Positions 18,741 through 41,024 of a stretch of 44,382 nucleotides of DNA are shown one piece after another (position 1 is the stretch's first letter; the number at the start of each line of letters is the position of its first letter). Both the position numbers and the translations under genes were made by a program. The DNA is from Thermomicrobiales bacterium. Its GTDB lineage: Bacteria; Chloroflexota; Chloroflexia; Thermomicrobiales; UBA6265. A model generated the notes under the pieces. The model was given only the letters and a program-made list of their open reading frames with translations, was not told the origin of the DNA and did not search any database. Location of the stretch: contig JAPXRQ010000003.1 of NCBI GenBank assembly GCA_033813515.1, forward strand, positions 1-44,382, written 5' to 3'.

Positions 18741-21629
18741 TCACGGATCGACAGGCGCGAAAACGGCCAACCTCCCATCGGCATTGGTGCAAACGACTTT
18801 TCCAGATGCGTCGATCGGAAACTCAACCTCCAGGCACTGCTTGCCATCGGTCACAAACATGAACACCTGCTCATGTGTCGTCGCGTCGATCCCGAGAATC
18901 GTTGTTCCGCTGGCTCCGTCAACACCATCAACCCCGTCGATTGATGACGCCGCCATCGGGCCGGCCGAGTTCGTAATCAACACATTGCTGCTGGTCAATA
19001 TCCCGATCACCGTTCGCGGCAACTCGTCCCCTGGCGTCCAGATCAATGATCCGTCGGCAAGTGAATACTCAGCGAGAAAGCAGCAAATCTCGGAATCTGG
19101 TGACGTGGCAGGAGTGCCGGAGATACGGGATTCTGACAGTGATGCGTAAAACGTTCCGTGATCCGTCACGGCCAGACCACTGACAATCGAAAAGTCGACT
19201 TTTTGCCAGACCGTCGAACCATCGTCCGAAGACCACAGGCCCAGAATCATTCCTCCATCGCCCTTCGCTCCGGATACGGTCATGATGCCGACCAGTGGAC
19301 CTTCCGGTGTTGCTGAAATCCACGCGTTGAAAAAGTCATCTGGCGGTACGAGGTCCAAAGATGATCTCTGCCAACGCATGTCTCCTGTCGAAAAGTCCAG
19401 TGCCGTTGCCATGCCACTGAGCACATCGACCATGAATACCGTCCGGCCATCAGTCGAGAGATATGGGGCAAACCCGGCTCGCGGGACACAGATCTCACAG
19501 GTGGCGTAGTCGTTCATGCCCGGACCCAGCACCCGATCAACGGTGTTTTTCCAAAGCAGCGTGCCCGTGCCCATATCGATCGCCGCTATCTGCCCCGAAA
19601 CGTCGCTGAACAAGATGGTCGTTCCGCTCACAATCAGAAAGGTGCCCGAGGAAGTTTGGGGAGGTAGCACTGAAACATCGCTCGCCAATGACCTACGCGA
19701 GCCATCCAGGTTGAACAAAGCCACCCGGAGTACAGAAGAGTCGGCGGGATCTCTGACCAGGGTCACGATGCCCTGACTCGTCACAACATACGGGACATTC
19801 TTCGGAATCGGCTGTTGCCAAAGGGCCTCACCGGACGACAAATCCTGCGCAGTCAATTGGACATCGCCATGCGCATCGGCGGCCGTGGTCGAATACAGCA
19901 CCGTGCCGAAAGAAGTTGCGAATTGATCACTGGATTGCCGTGACCAATCCTGCACCCACGTCGCCGAATACTGGCCACTCGTGAGTGTCGGACCAGTTAT
20001 CTGGCCGGAACCGGTCGGATCGATGCTGGAGTCAATCGCATCTGCCGAAGGGTTCTCGTCCGGGGTCGACACGTCGGCACGCGCAGCAGAGCCATACATA
20101 CGAGCCGTGTTTTCAACTCCAAGGCAAACAAACGAACCGTCATCGGCGATAGGCAATGACAGGATGCAATTGAGCGATTCAGGAATCTCCCAGAGCGTCT
20201 CACCTGTTTCCGGTCGAAACCCAATCGTTCGCAGTCCGTCACGCCCCGACGCAAGAATCAGCGCATTGTCTCGCGACGAGTAACCACGCAGGTATGCCGG
20301 GAAATCGCTTTCCCATTTTTGCTCGCCATTGTTCAGATCATAGGAGCGAACCTTCGAATCATCACCAATGATGAAATTTACATAAAGATTCGATCCATCA
20401 GTCGAAATCGTGCTGTCGAACTCTCCAGAAAGCTGCCAACGTTCGGCCCCATCTGCAGAGTCGAAAACCTGCAGGACCATCACAGGAGCATCCTGCGAAC
20501 CTCCTGAGGAACCCAATTCCGAAATCGAAACAATCTCAGGTGTCGTGGGCGGTTCTTCCGCCGTGGTAACGAGCACAACTCCGTGCGGAATGGCCACCGG
20601 AAGTGTGAATACATCAGCTGGGATCAGACTTCCCTGCGCCAATTGCCTCCATTGCTCAATCCCATCATCGATTCGCACTGCAACGATCAGGCGAGATCGA
20701 GGATTGAAGACATAAAGCAATCCTGATCCCAGCGCAGTATTCAAACGCACATTTGTATTCGAAGGATCAGTTGAAGCAAAGACCCAATTTTCGGAGCCGG
20801 TTTGCAGGTCGAACTTGATCACGTTACCCATGCGATCAGGCATATAGACAGCATTGTCATCAACAAGCATCCGGTGTGCAGAATCCAGTGACCAGTTCTG
20901 AAAGACACGTGTGCTTATCCAGATTGGCTCGCCAGTTTCTTTGTCCAGGAGTGTCACTGAAAACGGCGGTTGCAGAATGCCATCTCCGCCACCAGACGAA
21001 TAGACCCGCGTTGTCACGACTCCAGCGTCGGTCAGGATGAAGTCGACGGTGCTTGCCACCTCTGCCCGCCATCGTTCCGCGCCTGTGATGCGATCGTACG
21101 CAACCACCTGACTTGTGGTCAGTTTGTCTACCGGATGTTCCTGAACATAGACGAGATCGTCACCGAAGAACACAGGGCTTCTCCACACATGCGTGGCGCT
21201 CGGAAACTGCCAGTCTTCCTGTGGGTTCGCGCCGTTCGGGACACCACCGGTGTAATTCAGATCCCGGGCCGGTGATCCTCCAATCATTTGGATCGAATTG
21301 GCAGTCGACGGTGCATTAATGGTTGGAAACACGGACGAATCGGAAGTGTCCCGCCTCAGGCTGGATAGACCCGCCAGCGTCGCAATGAGCAGTACTGCCG
21401 CCGCCGCAATCGAAAGCATCCGATATCTCGTGGTGATGCTGGGTTGTTTCGATGTCCGCATAACCTGCCAGCCCGTCGGGACACCCCGAGCCGCACCAGC
21501 TCCGGATGCATCCGCCGCTCCCATTGCGCCGAGCATTTCTCCGCGCAACCGGCCGGCAAACCCCGCCTCGGGCTGCGCCGGACGATCCAGATCGGCCAGG
21601 GCCTGATCAATCAACTGCTCCGTCGTCAT
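18741..21629 (-). CDS. Membrane-anchored double PQQ-like beta-propeller protein, putative anti-sigma/sensor partner (paralog 2)
   Basis: 962 aa with the same layout. TM helix YRMLSIAAAAVLLIATLAGL. Repeats such as VVAYDRITGAERWR, VIKFDLQTGSENWV and IAAIDMGTGTLLWK. ATGA overlap with the sigma 2 stop. Confidence 0.75.
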   Translation of the reverse strand: MTTEQLIDQALADLDRPAQPEAGFAGRLRGEMLGAMGAADASGAGAARGVPTGWQVMRTSKQPSITTRYRMLSIAAAAVLLIATLAGLSSLRRDTSDSSVFPTINAPSTANSIQMIGGSPARDLNYTGGVPNGANPQEDWQFPSATHVWRSPVFFGDDLVYVQEHPVDKLTTSQVVAYDRITGAERWRAEVASTVDFILTDAGVVTTRVYSSGGGDGILQPPFSVTLLDKETGEPIWISTRVFQNWSLDSAHRMLVDDNAVYMPDRMGNVIKFDLQTGSENWVFASTDPSNTNVRLNTALGSGLLYVFNPRSRLIVAVRIDDGIEQWRQLAQGSLIPADVFTLPVAIPHGVVLVTTAEEPPTTPEIVSISELGSSGGSQDAPVMVLQVFDSADGAERWQLSGEFDSTISTDGSNLYVNFIIGDDSKVRSYDLNNGEQKWESDFPAYLRGYSSRDNALILASGRDGLRTIGFRPETGETLWEIPESLNCILSLPIADDGSFVCLGVENTARMYGSAARADVSTPDENPSADAIDSSIDPTGSGQITGPTLTSGQYSATWVQDWSRQSSDQFATSFGTVLYSTTAADAHGDVQLTAQDLSSGEALWQQPIPKNVPYVVTSQGIVTLVRDPADSSVLRVALFNLDGSRRSLASDVSVLPPQTSSGTFLIVSGTTILFSDVSGQIAAIDMGTGTLLWKNTVDRVLGPGMNDYATCEICVPRAGFAPYLSTDGRTVFMVDVLSGMATALDFSTGDMRWQRSSLDLVPPDDFFNAWISATPEGPLVGIMTVSGAKGDGGMILGLWSSDDGSTVWQKVDFSIVSGLAVTDHGTFYASLSESRISGTPATSPDSEICCFLAEYSLADGSLIWTPGDELPRTVIGILTSSNVLITNSAGPMAASSIDGVDGVDGASGTTILGIDATTHEQVFMFVTDGKQCLEVEFPIDASGKVVCTNADGRLAVFAPVDP

Positions 21630-35245: not shown

Positions 35246-35985
35246 TGTCGGCAGGGGTTATCGAATGTTGGAGTCAACTGCAACAGAAACGACAGATCGG
35301 CGCCGGCCTGGTACTCAACCGGATCCTGCCCGCGCTGAAACAGTCTGGCTCCGGTCAAACCACCCAACGTCAGCACATCACCCGATCGCCGCAGCCACGC
35401 TCCTTCCCGCACACCCAGCACCGCCACATCGTTCTCGTCCAGGAATTCGCGAATGCGCTCCTCCCGGGTCTCTCCCTGGTGCGTCGATGCCGGATCGGGA
35501 TCCTGATAGTGCGGATTGATCTGGAACGGAATCAGCCCGGTGGCGGCAAACGATGCCGGCTGCACGATCGGCATGTCGTTGGTCGTGCGCAAACTGGGGC
35601 AGGCCATATTCGTCCCGGCACTGGCGCCCATGTACCGCAATCTGCCAGCAGTCACCCCATCCCGAATGGCATCGATCAAACCGTGGTGCTGCATCGCCTT
35701 CAGCAGCCGGAACGAGTTCCCACCACCAACAAACACCGCACCGACATCGGCCAGTGTTCCGGCAGGATTCGCGACGGTGTGCAAACCCAGCACGGAGACT
35801 CCCAAAGGAACCAGCGCCCCCTCCAGCCGCGCGGTGTACTGATCATGATCGGCCCGAGCAAATGGCACGAACGCAACGCGATCGACCCCGCGCAGAAACG
35901 ACCGAATCTCCGGCAGCGCAAACTCCAGATAACTGCCGCCGTGCACACTCGAATTGCTGAGAAGAAGGAGTTCCGACGCTGCCAT
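35242..35985 (-). CDS. pepE: Dipeptidase E (peptidase S51)
   Basis: The ATG at 35985 gives MAASELLLLSNSSVHGG, similar to the PepE N-terminus. FVGGGNSFRLL and YMGASAGTNMACPSLRTTNDMPIV are present. The track ORF starts at 36087. Confidence 0.8.
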   Translation of the reverse strand: MAASELLLLSNSSVHGGSYLEFALPEIRSFLRGVDRVAFVPFARADHDQYTARLEGALVPLGVSVLGLHTVANPAGTLADVGAVFVGGGNSFRLLKAMQHHGLIDAIRDGVTAGRLRYMGASAGTNMACPSLRTTNDMPIVQPASFAATGLIPFQINPHYQDPDPASTHQGETREERIREFLDENDVAVLGVREGAWLRRSGDVLTLGGLTGARLFQRGQDPVEYQAGADLSFLLQLTPTFDNPCRQ

Positions 35986-36182
35986 CAACCACGCCCCACC
36001 ATGCGATTCCATCAACCTGGCAGCAACTATAGGAGGATTGAATTGCGGACCACTAAAACACCGCCCCTTTAGCCTTGAATCGGACATATTGGTAGGAAAA
36101 AGGTCCCTGATCAGGCTAGACCCACCCGGTTAGCCCCGCTGCCTACTTACGCACCAAAGGTCATAGTCCATATCATGGAGAT

Positions 36183-37166
36183 ATGGATGTGATGACCCTT
36201 TCCCAACTCGCCGAACAGACGGCTATCAGCCCTGAAACTCTGGTTGCGTACCGCGACACCTGGTTGCTGTATCTGCCAGTCATCCGCGTTGGACAGGCGG
36301 TTGGCTTCCTTCCCGAAGCCCTCGAAGTCGTCCGCCATATCCACGCCCAAACGACCGCGGGTTTGACACGTCAGGCGATCGAGACCGATCTCGCCGAGCG
36401 CTATCCCGTCTCGGTCATTGCCTCGCAACCAATCGCGTCGGCGCAGCCTGCATCCGGTTCCGGTTCTTCAGCCATTGCCCCGGTCAGCGGTCTGCTGCAG
36501 GATGTTGATCACAAGTACCAGGCGCTTGCCTACGAGATCTCCCAGATCCGCGAGGACCTCGGCAAGACCGCTTCGGAAGAGCGCGCCCTCCAGATCCAGC
36601 AGATGATCACCGGGGTCGCCCGCAAGACCAACAAGCACCTCGAGCCGATCGCCTCCGAGCTGGCCCAGATTCGTCAGGCCGTTGGTGTCCTCGCCAATCG
36701 CGTCGAACGCCAGCACACCGCCACCCTCCAGGATCGGACCGATCTCTCCACCACCATCGATTCCCTGGCCGCGCGCCTGCCCGATCATCAGCCCGGTATT
36801 ACCGATGAACTGAATGCCGTCCGCCGCGAAATCGCCGGATTGCGCTCCTCCCTGCCGGAAGGCGAGGTGAGTGACACTGGCCAACTGCAACAACTGGCCG
36901 GCGATGTTCACACCCTGCAGCAGCAAATCGGAGATCTGCGGCGCGATCGGGGACAACTGGTCTCGCTCATGTCAGCGCTGCAGGACAACCTGGCGCAGCT
37001 CTACATCGAACTGGCCGATGCCCGCCAAACCCGCAACGTACCCGCTCCGATCGAAACCATTCCAATGATCAATGCCGATCTTCAGCCATTCGATCCGGAC
37101 ACCGCCGCCAGCACAGGCACCGACGGACTCCGCACGCCACGCCGTTTAGGCCATCAAGGTCGCTAA
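36183..37166 (+). CDS. MerR-like N-terminal HTH protein with long coiled-coil/Gln-rich C-terminal region
   Basis: 327 aa. MTLSQLAEQTAISPETLVAYRD looks like an HTH. The rest is heptad-like (QIRQAVGVLANRVERQH, LQQLAGDVHTLQQQIGDLRRDRGQL). The function call is weak. Confidence 0.5.
   Translation: MDVMTLSQLAEQTAISPETLVAYRDTWLLYLPVIRVGQAVGFLPEALEVVRHIHAQTTAGLTRQAIETDLAERYPVSVIASQPIASAQPASGSGSSAIAPVSGLLQDVDHKYQALAYEISQIREDLGKTASEERALQIQQMITGVARKTNKHLEPIASELAQIRQAVGVLANRVERQHTATLQDRTDLSTTIDSLAARLPDHQPGITDELNAVRREIAGLRSSLPEGEVSDTGQLQQLAGDVHTLQQQIGDLRRDRGQLVSLMSALQDNLAQLYIELADARQTRNVPAPIETIPMINADLQPFDPDTAASTGTDGLRTPRRLGHQGR
37073..37126 (+). repeat. Direct repeat, left copy (inside the 3' end of the 36183..37166 CDS)
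   Basis: 49 of 54 positions are identical to 40360..40413 by position-by-position comparison. Confidence 0.9.
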
Positions 37167-40100
37167 CGGTCTTTGAAGCCGAATGCTTCATCTAGCTGCT
37201 AAGTCAGCTTAAGCTAACTTACCGCCCTGCCCACTCGACTACACTTTACGGTCACTTGCTTCGGACTCCCTCAGGTCCGCGAACCACCGTGACACACGTA
37301 TTGACATCTCGTCGGGGCGAAGTTAGGAACCGAAGTGACAAAGCATCGAGAACTCATTGCTTATGTCCGATTTCAACTAGATCAACTCTCCGCCCACAAC
37401 GCGCAACACGAATTCGAGCACATGTGTCGACATCTCGCTCGCCTGCGAGTGTGCAGCAATATCCTTCCAGCTACTGGGCCGGTTGCCGCGCGCGGTGACC
37501 AAGGGAGAGATGCAGAATCTTTCCGATCCTACCTAGCGAACAGCCCGGCGCTCGCGTCCTCGACATTTGTCGGACTCCTATCCGATCGTCCGATTGCTTT
37601 CGCTGTGACTCTTCAAAAGAAAGAGAACAACCTTAAAGGAAAACTCAAGGCCGATATTGCCAAAATCCAAAAAAGCGGAGTGCCCGTAAGCGAAATTCAT
37701 TATTTTTGCGCAGACGACCTCGATGTGGGTACTCGGCACACCATTCAAGCTTGGGCAAACGATACACATGGCGTGACGGTGCAGATTTACGATGGTCAAG
37801 CGATCGCGGAATTCCTCTGTGCTAGAGACACATTCTGGATCGCAACCGAATACTTGCAGGTTCCAAGCGAGATGTACCCTGACAGTCTGAGCGACGGACG
37901 GGACGACTGGTACCACACGCTGTTCCAATCCTGGCAAAACTTTCCGCAACAGCCGCTAACTTTCGCGACTTTTGCGGAGGTCAAAAGTGCGCTGCGGCAC
38001 TGTACTTTCACTCCTGACCACCAGAATGACCTTCTATTCTGGATGAGGCAACTCGAACCATTTCTATCGGAGGACGTACCTACCATACTGCGATACAGAA
38101 CAATGTACGAATTGGCCGTTGCCTCGCTCCGGGGATTAGGCACAATGGAAGGCAACGATCAACGACTGTACGAATACTTCGAGTCAACCTTGAGTTCTGA
38201 AACATACGCATCACTAGAAGATGCAGGAGTTCTTATCTCCTATTGTCTTGGCGCAATCCAACATCACGCAACACTTCTTCATAACGACACAGTTGTTAAG
38301 TGGCGAGATAATCTTGTAAAAATACTTGACAATCACCTCTCGACCGAACTTGCCGTTGGACCTAGATGCGACCTACTTTCTCTCCTTGGCTTTGTCGTAT
38401 GCTTCAGCCAAGGATATGGAATTCCTATTGAGGACCGCTCATCTACCACTATTTGGCTTGATCTCGTAACACATTTGGACAAAGCACCGCTTTTCCCTGT
38501 AGACAGGCTAGCTAATCTGTTGACCATTGCGGTTCCCCTTCTCTCTGACGAACCCAGGTTCGATGAACTGACAAAGCGCGTTGACCAATTAGTCGGTGAG
38601 CGGGCCGGACAGGCTGCTGCGGCTGAGAAGTGTCGAGATCGAGCAATGGCTTTCTTTGAGCAAGGACAATTGCTCCGCGCCATCACAGAACTCCAAGAGG
38701 CGAAGGTAAAATGGTTTACGGACGAAACTCTTTTAGGGTCAGTTCTCGCCATGCTATTCATCGCCCAGTGCTATCACGAGCTAAATCTTCATTATGCCGC
38801 CAAGTATTACGCGATGGCTGCTGCTTGGATTGCGATCCAATCAGAGCGTCAAACTCTCAGGGACAAGATATGGGTGGCGCTCACATTCGCTGCTGAATGC
38901 GACTATCTGCTCGGGAACTGGCGCGGCTATCTGCTGCTTTCGGACCTTGGCATGAAGAGCCATTGGTGGCTCGCTCGCAGGGCAGGCGATTACGAGGAAC
39001 ATCCCAACCTCGACAGAGTCTTTTACCACGCATCGGTTTGCCATGCGGTCGCTGAGCGGATCGACAGTGCATTATCTGCAGCCGTGTGGGACATGATCTC
39101 TGAATGGGGCTTGACAGAGGAGATTGAGGCAATCATGCCTTACGCACGCGAAATGCTCGGCAGCGGAAGCATTGACGAGATGTTAACCCTCACAGGGAAC
39201 CAACTGAGCGGACGACCATTCGCGGATGTGGCCAACGAGCGCCAGGTAGCGTGGGAGGCGCTGGGCATCACATGGCGAGTGCATTGGCAAAATGACTTGG
39301 CCACGAACAATGCTGCCGAAGAGTTTGTAGCGACACTACAAATAGCACTAACTGACTTTGCCAAACACGATTTATTACTCATAAAGACAGAAGTAGAGAT
39401 CGAGATTTTGATCGGCGACGTGACGTCACCAGTCGTGGATGATGCCTCATCGAACAGTGGCCGGCTTTGGCGGGTGCAATTGCCAACTTCCGATACGCAG
39501 AATGACAATAAAGAGCATCCCAAATCAGTCGATCTCCTTGGTGTCACGATCTATATCCTGCGCGAAGCCTCCTTATTGCCGAATGATGAATTCATGATGG
39601 CATTCGAGGAAGTAACGAAGGCAGGGATTACATCGAATGTGTTCGTTGGACGAGCGTATAGTGGTTTGCTCGATCAGTTCTCCAGCGCTGCGTCTCCGCT
39701 TCACACCCTCGGAATGCCAGAGAGGCTTTTGGTTGCCGATAGACCAACTTCGGTACCTCCGCATCCGGAGCTGGCTTGGCGAGACAATCTTGCTCCCGGA
39801 TATAGCCAAATTGAGTCTCATGAAGCTATTACGCGACGTTACCAACGCACATCCCAGAAAATCCCTGTGACTCTTGCACGACTTGCCGGTGATGCGCGAT
39901 TTCATCTAACTCGTCAGACTCTTGTGAACGATGGATGGAAAGACTGGCATTTGCTCTTAGCTGTATTGAATCTAACTCTGAACGTACGTCTACATGCTCG
40001 TCACGGTCAAATCTTACTTGCCAACGATAGTTTGGATTATGCCCACCATGCAATAAAGGAAGTGGTTGACGACTTAGAGTTAGAAAGCTCGGCCCCAATT

Positions 40101-40359
40101 GACCTAGATCGATTCACCGTCGACGAGCTCCGGCATATGATGGATATCGGGATGATTAATGTACTTAACACTTGGGGGCTGGAAATCCACCAAATCACGC
40201 CTGACCTCCCTGCAATTCGCACCTTCCTTGCTCAGCGTTACAATTTCTGGATTGACGATGTTGAGCATGAAGATCCCTTTCGGACAGATCAACCGCCAAG
40301 TATCTTGGTCGTTACGAGATAAAGCGAAGGTCATTTCGTGGTCATAGCGATTCACTCGT
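37167..40359. mobile_element. Lower-GC inserted islet bounded by direct repeats; no integrase or transposase seen
   Basis: Spot GC counts are 24/60 (37621-37680) and 31/60 (38341-38400). The flanks give 39/60 (36601-36660) and 37/60 (41401-41460). It is bounded by the 54-bp direct repeats. Confidence 0.55.
37335..40322 (+). CDS. Large hypothetical protein: N-terminal Mrr/PD-(D/E)xK-like nuclease motif plus helical/TPR-like body; candidate defense-type effector
   Basis: 995-aa uninterrupted ORF with a GTG start 6 nt after AGGA. The N-terminus has FEHMCRHLARL...GDQGRDAESF...IAFAVTLQKK, compared with Mrr-type FExL...GDGGID...QxK. A TPR-like stretch is AMAFFEQGQLLRAITELQEAKVKW...IAQCYHELNLHYAAKYYAMAA. 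No Walker A motif was seen. Confidence 0.6.
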   Translation: MTKHRELIAYVRFQLDQLSAHNAQHEFEHMCRHLARLRVCSNILPATGPVAARGDQGRDAESFRSYLANSPALASSTFVGLLSDRPIAFAVTLQKKENNLKGKLKADIAKIQKSGVPVSEIHYFCADDLDVGTRHTIQAWANDTHGVTVQIYDGQAIAEFLCARDTFWIATEYLQVPSEMYPDSLSDGRDDWYHTLFQSWQNFPQQPLTFATFAEVKSALRHCTFTPDHQNDLLFWMRQLEPFLSEDVPTILRYRTMYELAVASLRGLGTMEGNDQRLYEYFESTLSSETYASLEDAGVLISYCLGAIQHHATLLHNDTVVKWRDNLVKILDNHLSTELAVGPRCDLLSLLGFVVCFSQGYGIPIEDRSSTTIWLDLVTHLDKAPLFPVDRLANLLTIAVPLLSDEPRFDELTKRVDQLVGERAGQAAAAEKCRDRAMAFFEQGQLLRAITELQEAKVKWFTDETLLGSVLAMLFIAQCYHELNLHYAAKYYAMAAAWIAIQSERQTLRDKIWVALTFAAECDYLLGNWRGYLLLSDLGMKSHWWLARRAGDYEEHPNLDRVFYHASVCHAVAERIDSALSAAVWDMISEWGLTEEIEAIMPYAREMLGSGSIDEMLTLTGNQLSGRPFADVANERQVAWEALGITWRVHWQNDLATNNAAEEFVATLQIALTDFAKHDLLLIKTEVEIEILIGDVTSPVVDDASSNSGRLWRVQLPTSDTQNDNKEHPKSVDLLGVTIYILREASLLPNDEFMMAFEEVTKAGITSNVFVGRAYSGLLDQFSSAASPLHTLGMPERLLVADRPTSVPPHPELAWRDNLAPGYSQIESHEAITRRYQRTSQKIPVTLARLAGDARFHLTRQTLVNDGWKDWHLLLAVLNLTLNVRLHARHGQILLANDSLDYAHHAIKEVVDDLELESSAPIDLDRFTVDELRHMMDIGMINVLNTWGLEIHQITPDLPAIRTFLAQRYNFWIDDVEHEDPFRTDQPPSILVVTR

Positions 40360-40413
40360 TGCCGATCTCCAGCCATTCGATCCGGACACCGCCGCTGGCA
40401 CCGGAACCGACGG
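40360..40413 (+). repeat. Direct repeat, right copy (relic 3' end of the host gene, with its own stop TAG at 40436-40438)
   Basis: In the host-gene frame it encodes ADLQPFDPDTAAGTGTDG HRRCLGR then stop. The left copy encodes ADLQPFDPDTAASTGTDG LRTPRRLGHQGR then stop. Confidence 0.9.
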
Positions 40414-40451
40414 CCACCGCCGCTGCCTGGGCCGGTAGGATGTCGAGGGTT

Positions 40452-40472
40452 GGATGTTGAACGTTGAACGTT
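40452..40472. repeat. Period-7 tandem array (GGATGTT GAACGTT GAACGTT)
   Basis: Read directly, between the relic stop (40438) and the hairpin at 40501. Confidence 0.8.
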
Positions 40473-40500
40473 CGGGACTGCGCTTCAATTCACTGAAATC

Positions 40501-40534
40501 AGAATGGCCGAGGGGTACTTCCCTCGGCCATTCT
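40501..40534. terminator. Hairpin (13-bp stem), likely terminator for convergent transcription
   Basis: Arms agaatggccgagg / cctcggccattct with an 8-nt loop. Flanking T-tracts are weak. Confidence 0.5.
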
Positions 40535-40555
40535 CATTGCCAGGAACCGGGCGCT

Positions 40556-40590
40556 CGGAACTCGGAACTCGGAACTTCAAGCTCGAAGCT
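40556..40590. repeat. Period-7 tandem array (CGGAACT x3, TCAAGCT, CGAAGCT)
   Basis: Read directly. It abuts the stop codon (40590-40592) of the small minus-strand ORF. Confidence 0.85.
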
Positions 40591-40769
40591 CAGCCCCTCG
40601 TGCCGAGGATCGATCGCCGCTGCCACTCCTCGGTCCGGAACTCCCGTTCCGCCTTGGCCAGCAACGCCACATCTCGATCGGTCCGCTCGCCGTCCATCAC
40701 CAGGTTCGGACAGATCGCTGAGGAGCGCCCCGGGAGACGCAGCAGTTGCCGCATGCGCCCAAATGCCAT
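40590..40769 (-). CDS. Hypothetical 59-aa protein (second gene of a small two-ORF unit)
   Basis: An internal ATG at 40769 lies 12 nt after the stop of the upstream small ORF. No recognisable motif. Coding status is uncertain. Confidence 0.3.
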   Translation of the reverse strand: MAFGRMRQLLRLPGRSSAICPNLVMDGERTDRDVALLAKAEREFRTEEWQRRSILGTRG

Positions 40770-40780
40770 CCCGTACCCCC

Positions 40781-40960
40781 TTACCCGCGGAACCCGAACT
40801 GCGAGGCAACCAGGTCCCAATGCATGTCCTGCGCCTGCCGATTGCGCTTCACAATCTGCTCGATTTCCTTATCAGTCGCCCCGTCGATCGCGGCGACAGC
40901 AGCGGGAAGGCTCTTCTCAATCTCCGCTTGCGTTCGAGTGCGTGTCGGTCTGAACTTCAT
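40781..40960 (-). CDS. Hypothetical 59-aa protein
   Basis: The ATG at 40960 is preceded by AAGGGA. The sequence MKFRPTRTRTQAEIEKSLPAAVAAIDGATDKEIEQIVKRNRQ has no family I can name. Confidence 0.35.
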   Translation of the reverse strand: MKFRPTRTRTQAEIEKSLPAAVAAIDGATDKEIEQIVKRNRQAQDMHWDLVASQFGFRG

Positions 40961-41024
40961 TGTCTGTTCCCTTTCAGTAACCACTATCCTTTACCAACTG
41001 GTTACATGGCTAGTCTATCGCCTC

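What the first reader, a model, noticed from the sequence alone, without database searches (positions are those of the whole stretch)
37073..40413. Lower-GC 3.2-kb islet inserted into the 3' end of a host gene, which it reconstitutes via a 54-bp direct repeat
Positions 37073-37126 and 40360-40413 match at 49/54 positions. Both encode ADLQPFDPDTAA(S/G)TGTDG in the frame of the 36183 gene. The distal copy has its own stop (TAG 40436) followed by the usual heptamer-hairpin terminator region. It therefore looks like the original gene end. The proximal copy supplies a replacement C-terminus. Between them GC drops (24/60 and 31/60 in two sampled lines, versus 37-39/60 in the flanks) and there is a single 995-aa ORF. 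Established knowledge: site-specific integrating elements commonly carry a copy of the target gene's 3' end and leave att-like direct repeats. No integrase, transposase or terminal inverted repeats are visible, so this is either a decayed island or a cargo delivered in trans.
Basis: partly seen in the sequence, partly recalled or inferred. Interest (0 to 1): 0.65.

Follow-up and report, generated by a model that had tools for sequence, protein, structure and literature searches.

The report
Single-gene islet duplicating a gene's end
A 3.3-kb piece of foreign DNA carrying one large, probably defensive, gene sits in the last 30 codons of a conserved regulator-like gene of an activated-sludge bacterium. 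It brought its own copy of the gene's end, and sister strains lack it: a clean but fairly ordinary genomic islet.

Summary
Positions 37073-37126 and 40360-40413 match at 49/54, far above chance. The DNA between them has GC 0.50 against 0.60 in the flanks. Its single 995-aa ORF has the most atypical codon usage in the window.

An empty-site test succeeded. Sister strains about 4-5% diverged, often in the same sludge samples, run from the gene end straight into the downstream terminator. A more distant relative (83% aa) does the same.

The distal copy is the old gene end, because it shares two in-frame deletions with every empty allele. The proximal, islet-borne copy carries the family-wide conserved tail LRTPRRLGHQGR.

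The islet has no recombinase, no terminal inverted repeats and only 205 non-coding bases. Homologues of the cargo gene lie directly beside tyrosine integrases in 3 of 8 other loci examined.

The best reading is a CIME-like remnant or trans-mobilised cassette, integrated by att-type recombination. The cargo belongs to an unannotated family of about 980 aa found in bacteria and archaea. A paralogue replaces its N-terminal domain with a Cap4 nuclease, which suggests an effector-plus-sensor defence protein.

It is a new member of a known kind, of moderate interest.

The parts
36183..37166 (+). Host gene of 327 aa: N-terminal MerR-type HTH, long coiled coil, and a conserved C-terminal motif LRTPRRLGHQGR. 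The last ~30 codons lie in the repeat, and the last 13 codons plus the stop are islet-borne.
   Evidence: Pfam MerR_1 at residues 4-68 plus coiled-coil-type hits. 18 homologues at 38-97% identity, mostly Chloroflexota metagenome proteins. The tail motif is conserved in 15 of the 17 sequences in A2, window included.
37073..37133 (+). Proximal (attL-like) copy of the direct repeat, inside the coding end of the host gene.
   Evidence: 49/54 matches, 54/61 matches, and an exact 26-nt core at 37083-37108.
37127..37166 (+). Islet-borne replacement tail, LRTPRRLGHQGR plus TAA. It has the same architecture as the tail of outgroup L012 and of distant family members.
   Evidence: GC is 0.60, which is host-like and unlike the rest of the islet.
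37167..37334 (+). 168-bp spacer. It holds an AT-rich palindrome (37200-37221), a TTGACA box (37301-37306) and an AGGA ribosome-binding site upstream of the GTG start. It has no ORF remnant and no strong RNA structure.
   Evidence: Sequence; palindrome I3; fold z = +0.65; no Rfam match; GC 0.536.
37335..40322 (+). Cargo gene of 995 aa and intact. It has an N-terminal alpha/beta domain (residues ~1-177, invariant GDQGRDxE cluster), a long helical-repeat body, a small beta domain (~635-717) and a C-terminal helical domain. It is a candidate defence protein of an unannotated family.
   Evidence: No Pfam, NCBIfam, PADLOC or PDB-sequence hit. 365 homologues of 960-1020 aa in bacteria and archaea, the best at 47% identity. 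AF2 pLDDT 83. Only TPR-like structural matches. A Cap4-nuclease-fused paralogue exists.
40323..40359 (+). 37-bp right end of the islet, between the cargo stop codon and the distal repeat.
   Evidence: Sequence; GC 0.486; absent from the empty-site contigs.
40360..40420 (+). Distal (attR-like) copy of the direct repeat. It is no longer translated as part of any gene.
40414..40438 (+). Relic of the original gene tail, HRRCLGR plus TAG. Relative to the canonical tail it has the same 6-bp and 9-bp in-frame deletions as the functional tail of the empty-site strains.
   Evidence: Alignment A5; loose ends of empty-allele contigs; P0001 protein.
40497..40538 (.). Conserved GC-rich hairpin, the original terminator of the host gene. 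It now lies downstream of the cargo gene and faces the convergent small genes at 40590-40984 (-).
   Evidence: Inverted repeat I1; MFE -59 kcal/mol, z = -4.6; conserved in L001.

Best explanation
The segment is a 3,287-bp horizontally acquired islet. It entered the last ~30 codons of a conserved MerR-HTH/coiled-coil gene by a reciprocal (Campbell-type) recombination between an att-like site on the incoming DNA and the gene end.

The incoming DNA carried its own copy of the gene end, a 54-61-bp block plus 13 codons and a stop. After integration the gene is finished by the islet-borne tail. The original tail and terminator are displaced 3.3 kb downstream as a silent relic.

The recombinase is not encoded in the islet. 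Most likely it was a site-specific (tyrosine) integrase, either lost by deletion from a small integrase-plus-cargo element or supplied in trans by a related element. The present structure is therefore a CIME-like, non-autonomous islet.

Its only gene encodes a ~1000-aa protein. I infer this to be a stand-alone defence protein with an N-terminal effector domain on a large helical sensor body.

Shown: the insertion, the duplication, which copy is the old one, the foreign composition, strain-level presence/absence, and an intact cargo gene. Inferred: the recombinase type, the loss or trans supply of the integrase, and the defence function.
For: Empty sites exist in sister strains and in an outgroup, with conserved downstream synteny. 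Islet-bearing and empty strains occur in the same sludge metagenomes.

The homology between the two copies starts abruptly at 37073/40360 and ends at the stop codons. This is the usual layout of elements that rebuild the 3' end of their target gene. The distal tail equals the tail of the empty alleles, and the proximal tail equals the family-canonical tail.

GC and codon usage are foreign. There are no terminal inverted repeats.

Homologues of the cargo gene lie next to tyrosine integrases in L018, L019 and L022. Others lie in a serine-recombinase element (L011) and on plasmids, one in a defence-island-like setting with ABC-3C and reverse-transcriptase genes.

The C-terminal body (residues 178-982) is shared with a Hymenobacter plasmid protein whose N-terminus is a Cap4 dsDNA nuclease. 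CIMEs are a described outcome of ICE/IME decay (PMC5704250).
Against: No integrase is present in the islet or among the ORFs tested across roughly 26 kb upstream and 4 kb downstream.

Only 168 + 37 non-coding bases remain, with no pseudogene debris. This is unusually clean for a decayed element.

No circular or excised form was seen, and no empty allele at >=99% identity to the window. These data are contigs, which hide rare forms.

No second insertion at this gene end was found in about 10 other loci of the gene family, so there is no evidence for a recurrent att site.

The two 54-bp blocks share derived bases against the empty alleles, which a simple host-plus-foreign model does not predict.

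The defence function is untested. The N-terminal domain has no significant structural match (best E = 0.02) and no sequence similarity to Cap4. The family was not found in IMG/VR.
Confidence: 0.55

Rival explanations
1. The topology is the same (Campbell-type single crossover) but no dedicated integrase was involved. A circular DNA carrying a relative's gene end plus the cargo gene integrated by RecA-dependent homologous recombination through the ~60-90-bp homology. That DNA could be a circularised fragment or a non-replicating plasmid piece taken up from a close relative.
For: No recombinase gene is present. The two blocks are very similar, 49/54 with a 26-nt exact core, and share lineage-specific bases. 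This fits a donor from the same lineage and a homology-driven crossover. The islet-borne tail has host-like GC, as expected for DNA copied from a related genome. Host-gene alleles look mosaic among co-occurring strains, so recombination is active at this locus.
Against: Sixty to ninety bases of imperfect homology is a poor substrate for RecA. This model still has to explain how the cargo first came to lie next to such a gene end in the donor. Homologues of the cargo are repeatedly adjacent to integrases, which points to site-specific mobility for this gene family.
Confidence: 0.2
2. The islet is older than the split between the window strain and the empty-site strains. After insertion the displaced native tail decayed silently. 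The sister lineage later lost the islet by recombination between the two repeats and so inherited the decayed short tail. On this view the empty sites in L001-type strains are secondary losses, not the pre-insertion state.
For: A C-terminal motif conserved in every other homologue, down to 39% identity, is missing exactly in the empty-site strains and in the silent distal copy. The distal tail and the L001 tail differ at 14 of 79 bases, several times the ~4-5% genome-wide divergence.
Against: Both deletions in the short tail are in frame and the stop is retained. This looks like evolution under selection in a working gene rather than decay, although the chance of this under neutrality is about 1 in 9. 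The two window blocks share bases not found in the empty alleles, so gene conversion or accelerated change in the sister lineage must be added. The outgroup L012 shows only that the deeper ancestor was empty.
Confidence: 0.15
3. Homology-facilitated illegitimate recombination. A linear fragment from a relative was anchored by homologous recombination inside the host gene, and its far end joined illegitimately 30 codons upstream of the recipient's stop. The duplication arose by accident.
For: Divergence between the window and the empty allele rises along the gene: about 1.4% in 35906-36697, about 6% in 36698-37000, and about 13% in 37001-37126. This could mark a donor tract starting near 36698. 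In run X3 the two strains assemble as a single path up to 36697 and split only after it.
Against: Genome-wide divergence between these lineages is already 2-7% and patchy, and the 3' linker of the gene is poorly conserved in the whole family, so the gradient is not diagnostic. The right junction falls exactly at the start of a block that is 91% identical. The duplicated homology runs precisely to the stop codon, which an accidental joint does not predict.
Confidence: 0.07
4. Assembly or binning artefact: the islet belongs to another organism and was joined in through the repeated 54-mer.
For: The repeat could in principle mislead a de Bruijn assembler.
Against: Independent contigs from several studies span both junctions with 0 mismatches. 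Examples are X3 37007-40054 and 40046-40975, X2 38472-40638, X4 37016-38090 and X33 39759-40882. Islet depth equals flank depth of the window-type strain.
Confidence: 0.01

Closest known systems
CIMEs (cis-mobilizable elements), e.g. the CIMEs left at the 3' end of fda by ICESt1/ICESt3-type elements in Streptococcus thermophilus; definition in PMC5704250
   Same: [quoted passage not shown] It has no integrase or transfer genes. It carries cargo only. Presence and absence vary between close strains.
   Different: No cognate ICE/IME or integrase is known for this site. The organism is a Chloroflexota-like sludge bacterium. The element is a single gene with almost no non-coding DNA. Mobilisation in cis has not been shown.
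Integrase-bearing genomic islands and prophages that insert in the 3' end of protein-coding or tRNA genes and rebuild it (general class; dusA-specific islands are described in PMC4482086, though those use the 5' end)
   Same: It shows Campbell topology, a direct repeat equal to a duplicated gene end, an element-borne replacement end, atypical GC and a precise empty site.
   Different: The defining integrase gene is absent. The repeat is long (54-61 nt plus tail) and imperfect.
Small integrase-plus-cargo modules carrying homologues of the same ~980-aa gene
   Same: They carry the same cargo family (38-45% identity), in the same orientation, with a tyrosine integrase within 50-730 bp.
   Different: Those loci keep the integrase, and no flanking repeat could be identified there. 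The window islet has the repeats but no integrase.
Single-protein effector-sensor defence proteins, such as Avs/STAND proteins and Cap4- or LmuA-type nuclease fusions
   Same: There is a large helical-repeat body with an exchangeable N-terminal domain, which is a Cap4 nuclease in the Hymenobacter paralogue. Distribution is patchy across bacteria and archaea. The family is associated with mobile elements and defence-type neighbours.
   Different: The model shows no P-loop/STAND NTPase domain, since residues 190-620 are all-helical. There is no PADLOC or Pfam hit. The N-terminal domain of the window protein is unassigned. No experimental evidence of defence exists.

Membership tests
Site-specific integrative element / genomic island at a gene 3' end | Flanking direct repeats (attL/attR) derived from the target site | tested here: met
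   49/54 and 54/61 repeat, exact 26-nt core, score far above shuffles.
Site-specific integrative element / genomic island at a gene 3' end | Precise empty site in related genomes | tested here: met
   L001-L004, the X34 single contig and outgroup L012.
Site-specific integrative element / genomic island at a gene 3' end | Encodes its own integrase or recombinase | tested here: not met
   The islet holds one ORF with no recombinase signature. No integrase domain was found in the window ORFs tested.
Site-specific integrative element / genomic island at a gene 3' end | Excision to a circular form, leaving attB | tested here: inconclusive
   No attP joint and no window-type empty allele appear in Logan contigs of 20+ runs. 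Contigs drop rare variants and raw reads were not available.
CIME (cis-mobilizable element) | Retains attL and attR but lacks integration and transfer genes | tested here: met
   Repeats are present, and no recombinase, relaxase or transfer genes are found. That the repeats are functional att sites is inferred.
CIME (cis-mobilizable element) | Derived from, and mobilisable by, a cognate ICE/IME with the same site specificity | not testable with these tools
   No element with the same core was found. Only 44 kb of the genome is available, and the collection scans returned too few relatives.
Insertion sequence / transposon | Terminal inverted repeats, a transposase and a short target-site duplication | tested here: not met
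   No inverted repeat at the ends and no transposase domain. The duplication is 54+ nt and not identical.
Integron gene cassette | An attC recombination site at the cassette 3' end and a nearby intI/attI | tested here: not met
   The 37-bp right end and flanks show no imperfect-palindrome structure (fold z = +0.8). No integrase is present.
Avs / STAND NTPase defence proteins (for the cargo) | Central P-loop STAND NTPase domain | tested here: not met
   No AAA/NACHT/NB-ARC Pfam hit in 30 family members. The AF2 model is all-helical between residues 190 and 620.
Known anti-phage systems in PADLOC-DB v2 (for the cargo) | Match to a system protein model | tested here: not met
   No hit for the window protein, P0019, P0049 or the Blastomonas homologue. 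Only the Cap4-type N-terminus of the Hymenobacter paralogue hits LmuA models.

The most novel reading that the evidence does not exclude
The islet is a self-sufficient minimal cassette with no recombinase of its own. It spreads between related strains by using its ~60-90-bp copy of the target gene's end as a homology arm. Because it carries the canonical, fully conserved C-terminal motif while the host's own tail is a shortened derivative, losing the islet would leave the host gene with an inferior end. The cassette would then be held in place by selection on a core gene (entrenchment). Its cargo would found a new NTPase-free effector-sensor defence family with swappable N-terminal domains.
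Probability: 0.12. Interest if true: 0.7.

Novelty: new member of a known kind. Interest (0 to 1): 0.4.

Why it matters
This is a very clean natural example of how a single candidate defence gene becomes fixed at a core-gene end, and it comes from a poorly studied phylum. The filled and empty alleles co-occur in the same wastewater communities. The old and new gene ends are both still readable.

It also flags a widespread, unannotated ~980-aa protein family as a testable defence candidate. The family has more than 360 members in bacteria and archaea. It often lies next to integrases or on plasmids, and in one branch its N-terminal domain is replaced by a Cap4 nuclease.

The mismatch between what the repeat block and the tail say about ancestry makes the locus a small test case for concerted evolution of att-like repeats, or for entrenchment of islands through decay of the displaced gene end.

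Tried and rejected
Searches and comparisons that gave nothing:
- Genome-collection and metagenome scans for the host gene gave only 1 and 6 loci, none with another insertion. A hotspot test was therefore not possible.
- The exact window protein is not on record in the contig index.
- The cargo family is not found in IMG/VR viral contigs.
- Pfam, NCBIfam, PADLOC and PDB sequence and profile searches of the cargo were empty.
- The full-length fold search gave only generic TPR matches.
- The fold search of the N-terminal domain gave no significant hit. The best was restriction endonuclease EcoT38I at E = 0.02, and the rest were Rossmann-like folds. I dropped my first guess of a Mrr-like PD-(D/E)xK nuclease as unproven.
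- hhalign of that domain against the Cap4 domain of the paralogue found nothing. It is a different domain, not a diverged Cap4.
- No flanking repeats were found around the integrase-plus-homologue modules L018, L019 and L022, or around L010.
- No tRNA gene and no Rfam family lies at the locus.

Lines of evidence I did not rely on:
- The rising divergence along the host gene looked like a recombination tract but is within the genome-wide scatter.
- RNA contigs cover only the 3' quarter of the cargo gene and the distal repeat. They are unstranded, so expression of the cargo is suggested but not shown.

Full report
**1. The observation**

The mismatches are at 37082, 37109, 37110, 37115 and 37118. 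The match continues without gaps to 61 nt at 89% identity. Allowing a 6-bp and a 9-bp gap, it runs on to the two stop codons.

The best ungapped self-match of the 6-kb region scores 40. Forty dinucleotide-preserving shuffles gave a mean of 12.3 and a maximum of 14. The exact 26-nt core occurs only twice in the 44-kb window, with zero expected.

In the frame of the gene that starts at 36183, the proximal copy reads ADLQPFDPDTAASTGTDG-LRTPRRLGHQGR*. The distal copy reads ADLQPFDPDTAAGTGTDG-HRRCLGR*.

GC falls to 0.46-0.53 between 37501 and 40500, against 0.57-0.63 on both sides. The single long ORF, 37335-40322 (995 aa), has GC 0.505 and GC3 0.51. These values and its synonymous-codon likelihood are the lowest of 21 ORFs tested in the window.

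A 15-bp GC-rich hairpin at 40497-40538 follows the distal copy (z = -4.6). Nothing comparable follows the proximal stop codon.

**2. Empty-site test**

The closest homologue of the host protein, P0001 (97% identity), is 322 aa long rather than 327. Four short contigs encode it, L001-L004. They align at 96.3% to window 35906-37126 and then continue directly with the sequence that follows the distal copy: short tail, hairpin and the convergent downstream gene. They lack 3,287 bp.

Public contigs laid on the window show the same thing at population level:
- In runs X1-X4 and X33, contigs identical to the window span both junctions. Examples are X3 37007-40054 and 40046-40975, X2 38472-40638, and X33 39759-40882.
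- Run X10 has the flanks at depth ~18 and the islet at depth 0.
- Run X34 has one 6,425-nt contig that jumps from 37123 to 40503.

At least two empty alleles exist, PELGAS... and PELGAN.... The empty-site lineage is 2-7% diverged from the window across 19 kb, so it is a sister lineage near the species boundary. The two types co-occur in the same samples.

A more distant relative, L012 (83% aa identity), is also empty and keeps the same downstream small gene. The ancestral state is therefore empty and the islet is an insertion. An assembly artefact is excluded by the many independent junction-spanning contigs.

**3. Which copy is old**

An alignment of 17 family members shows that the C-terminal LRTPRRLGHQGR motif is conserved in nearly all of them, down to 39% identity.

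The proximal, translated copy in the window has this canonical tail, with the same architecture as outgroup L012. The distal copy and every empty allele share a derived short tail. It has two in-frame deletions, 6 bp removing TP and 9 bp removing HQG, and ends GGCCGGTAG.

The distal tail is physically continuous with the host's downstream DNA and is the same form as in the empty alleles. It is therefore the host's original end. The islet-borne tail has host-like GC (0.60), and the drop in GC begins only after its stop codon. This suggests the gene-end copy was picked up from a related high-GC genome, while the cargo has a different origin.

**4. An unresolved detail**

Inside the 54-bp block, both window copies share GAC ACC GCC (PDTAA). 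The empty alleles have GAG CTC GGC and L012 has GAG CCG ATC. The two window copies match each other at 49/54, while each matches L001 at only 45/54.

So the block says the two copies are sisters, while the tail says the distal copy is the sister of the empty allele. Three explanations remain:
- Gene conversion between the blocks after insertion.
- A donor from the same lineage that still had the canonical tail.
- An insertion older than the strain split, silent decay of the displaced tail, and later repeat-mediated loss in the sister lineage.

Both deletions in the short tail are in frame. This mildly favours evolution in a working gene, meaning the short tail existed before the insertion. I could not resolve this with the contigs available (note).

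**5. What is and is not in the islet**

Apart from the duplicated gene end, the islet consists of three parts:
- A 168-bp spacer. It holds an AT-rich palindrome at 37200-37221, a TTGACA box at 37301 and an AGGA ribosome-binding site before the GTG start.
- The 2,988-bp ORF.
- A 37-bp right end.

There are no terminal inverted repeats, no tRNA gene, no Rfam family, and no recombinase or transposase domain in the ORF or in the other window ORFs tested. There is no room for pseudogene debris.

**6. The cargo**

The 995-aa protein has no hit in Pfam, NCBIfam, PADLOC or the PDB by sequence or profile. It nevertheless belongs to a large family: 365 hits, nearly all 960-1020 aa, the best at only 47% identity. 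Members come from Chloroflexota, Acidobacteriota, Bacteroidota, Methanobacterium and Bathyarchaeota. Others lie on plasmids of Agrobacterium, Blastomonas, Bradyrhizobium, Streptomyces and Mycobacterium. No member was found in IMG/VR.

An AlphaFold model (pLDDT 83) shows four regions:
- An N-terminal alpha/beta domain of ~177 residues.
- About 430 residues of helical repeats.
- A small beta domain at ~635-717.
- A helical C-terminal domain.

Only TPR-type structures match the whole model. The N-terminal domain is the most conserved part, at 50-64% identity. It has an invariant GDQGRDxE cluster plus H25, E28, K103 and D107. That cluster lies in a loop the model cannot place, and the best structural match is weak (EcoT38I, E = 0.02).

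A Hymenobacter plasmid paralogue of 1,249 aa shares the body, residues 178-982 (E = 2e-57). Its N-terminus is instead a Cap4 dsDNA nuclease domain, matching PF14130 above threshold and PADLOC LmuA models. The two N-terminal domains are unrelated in sequence. This is the domain-swapping pattern typical of effector-sensor immune proteins. Here there is no NTPase module.

Genomic contexts of the homologues fit a mobile defence cargo:
- Tyrosine integrases lie directly adjacent in L018, L019 and L022.
- L011 is a serine-recombinase element with a methyltransferase and a DUF3854 primase-like gene.
- L021 is a MOBQ plasmid with ABC-3C and reverse-transcriptase genes.
- L020 lies next to a HipA toxin-antitoxin pair.

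Metatranscriptome contigs identical to the window cover 39276-40079 and 40254-40658 in four runs of one study. They are unstranded and could come from antisense read-through of the highly represented small genes at 40590-40984. Expression is therefore suggested, not shown.

**7. Mechanism**

The topology is that of a reciprocal, Campbell-type recombination between a site on incoming circular DNA and the gene end. A gene end is duplicated as a direct repeat, the homology starts abruptly and ends at the stop codon, and the element-borne copy completes the gene.

The cargo family is repeatedly found beside integrases. I therefore think the most likely history is site-specific integration by a tyrosine recombinase that is no longer in the islet, or never was. 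That makes it a CIME-like remnant or a cassette mobilised in trans, as defined in PMC5704250. I put this at about 0.55.

The main rival is the same topology achieved by RecA through the 60-90-bp homology. The high similarity of the two blocks supports it (0.2).

A third reading concerns timing rather than nature: ancient gain, decay of the displaced tail, and secondary loss in the sister lineage (0.15).

One-sided, homology-facilitated illegitimate recombination is possible but does not predict the exact boundaries (0.07). Divergence does rise along the host gene, but this lies within the genome-wide scatter.

**8. Comparison with known kinds, and novelty**

The structure meets the repeat, empty-site, composition and gene-rebuilding criteria of integrative islands. 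It fails the integrase criterion. It fits the descriptive definition of a CIME, but neither its derivation from a cognate element nor its mobilisation by one could be tested. It is not an IS or transposon, nor an integron cassette.

The cargo is not a member of any described defence family that I could test. It only resembles effector-sensor proteins in architecture.

Overall this is a new member of a known kind of element. It has two points of modest interest: the canonical-versus-shortened tail relationship, and an unannotated, widespread candidate defence family.

**9. Verdict**

Interest is 0.4. The decisive experiments are junction and circle PCR or deep long reads, a search of complete genomes for a cognate integrase, a genus-wide survey of tail type against islet presence, and a phage-challenge assay of the cargo gene.

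Noticed in passing
window 40554-40588: A tandem array of heptamers (CTCGGAA x3, then CTTCAAG and CTCGAAG) lies just after the terminator hairpin. The sister strains lack 21 nt (three units) here, so the copy number varies between strains.
   Followed up: partly
window 40590-40984 (- strand): Two small overlapping ORFs (76 and 67 aa) with no family hit lie convergent to the islet. The 67-aa one is conserved in L012 and L001. This stretch has the highest depth of the region in metatranscriptome contigs (20-36).
   Followed up: partly
window 18741-21629 (- strand), especially 20001-21000: There is a second dip in GC (0.51-0.54) inside one of several large PQQ/beta-propeller repeat genes. Codon usage there is also among the less typical in the window.
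   Followed up: no
window 36388-36408 joined to 37474-37494 in runs X1, X2, X4, X33: A contig at depth ~11-13 carries two adjacent 21-nt matches to the window, reported as a joint that skips 1,065 nt, with unrelated sequence on both sides. It is probably a chance or conserved-motif match from another organism.
   Followed up: no
L006 9236-10299 (- strand): Downstream of a 61%-identical homologue of the host gene, recA is called as two separate ORFs (122 aa and 152 aa). This may be a split, interrupted or mis-assembled recA.
   Followed up: no
window 37293-37311 and 37419-37437: A 19-nt direct repeat (CACAYGTRTYGACATCTCG, 84% identity) has one copy over the putative -35 box of the cargo gene and one inside its first 35 codons. 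It could be an operator or chance.
   Followed up: no
window 36668-37045 in runs X3, X10, X16, X27: Host-gene alleles look mosaic among co-occurring strains. Some contigs are identical to the window up to ~37034 and then join the empty-type 3' end. X27 shows a further allele alongside islet contigs at 100% identity. This suggests frequent recombination at the locus.
   Followed up: partly
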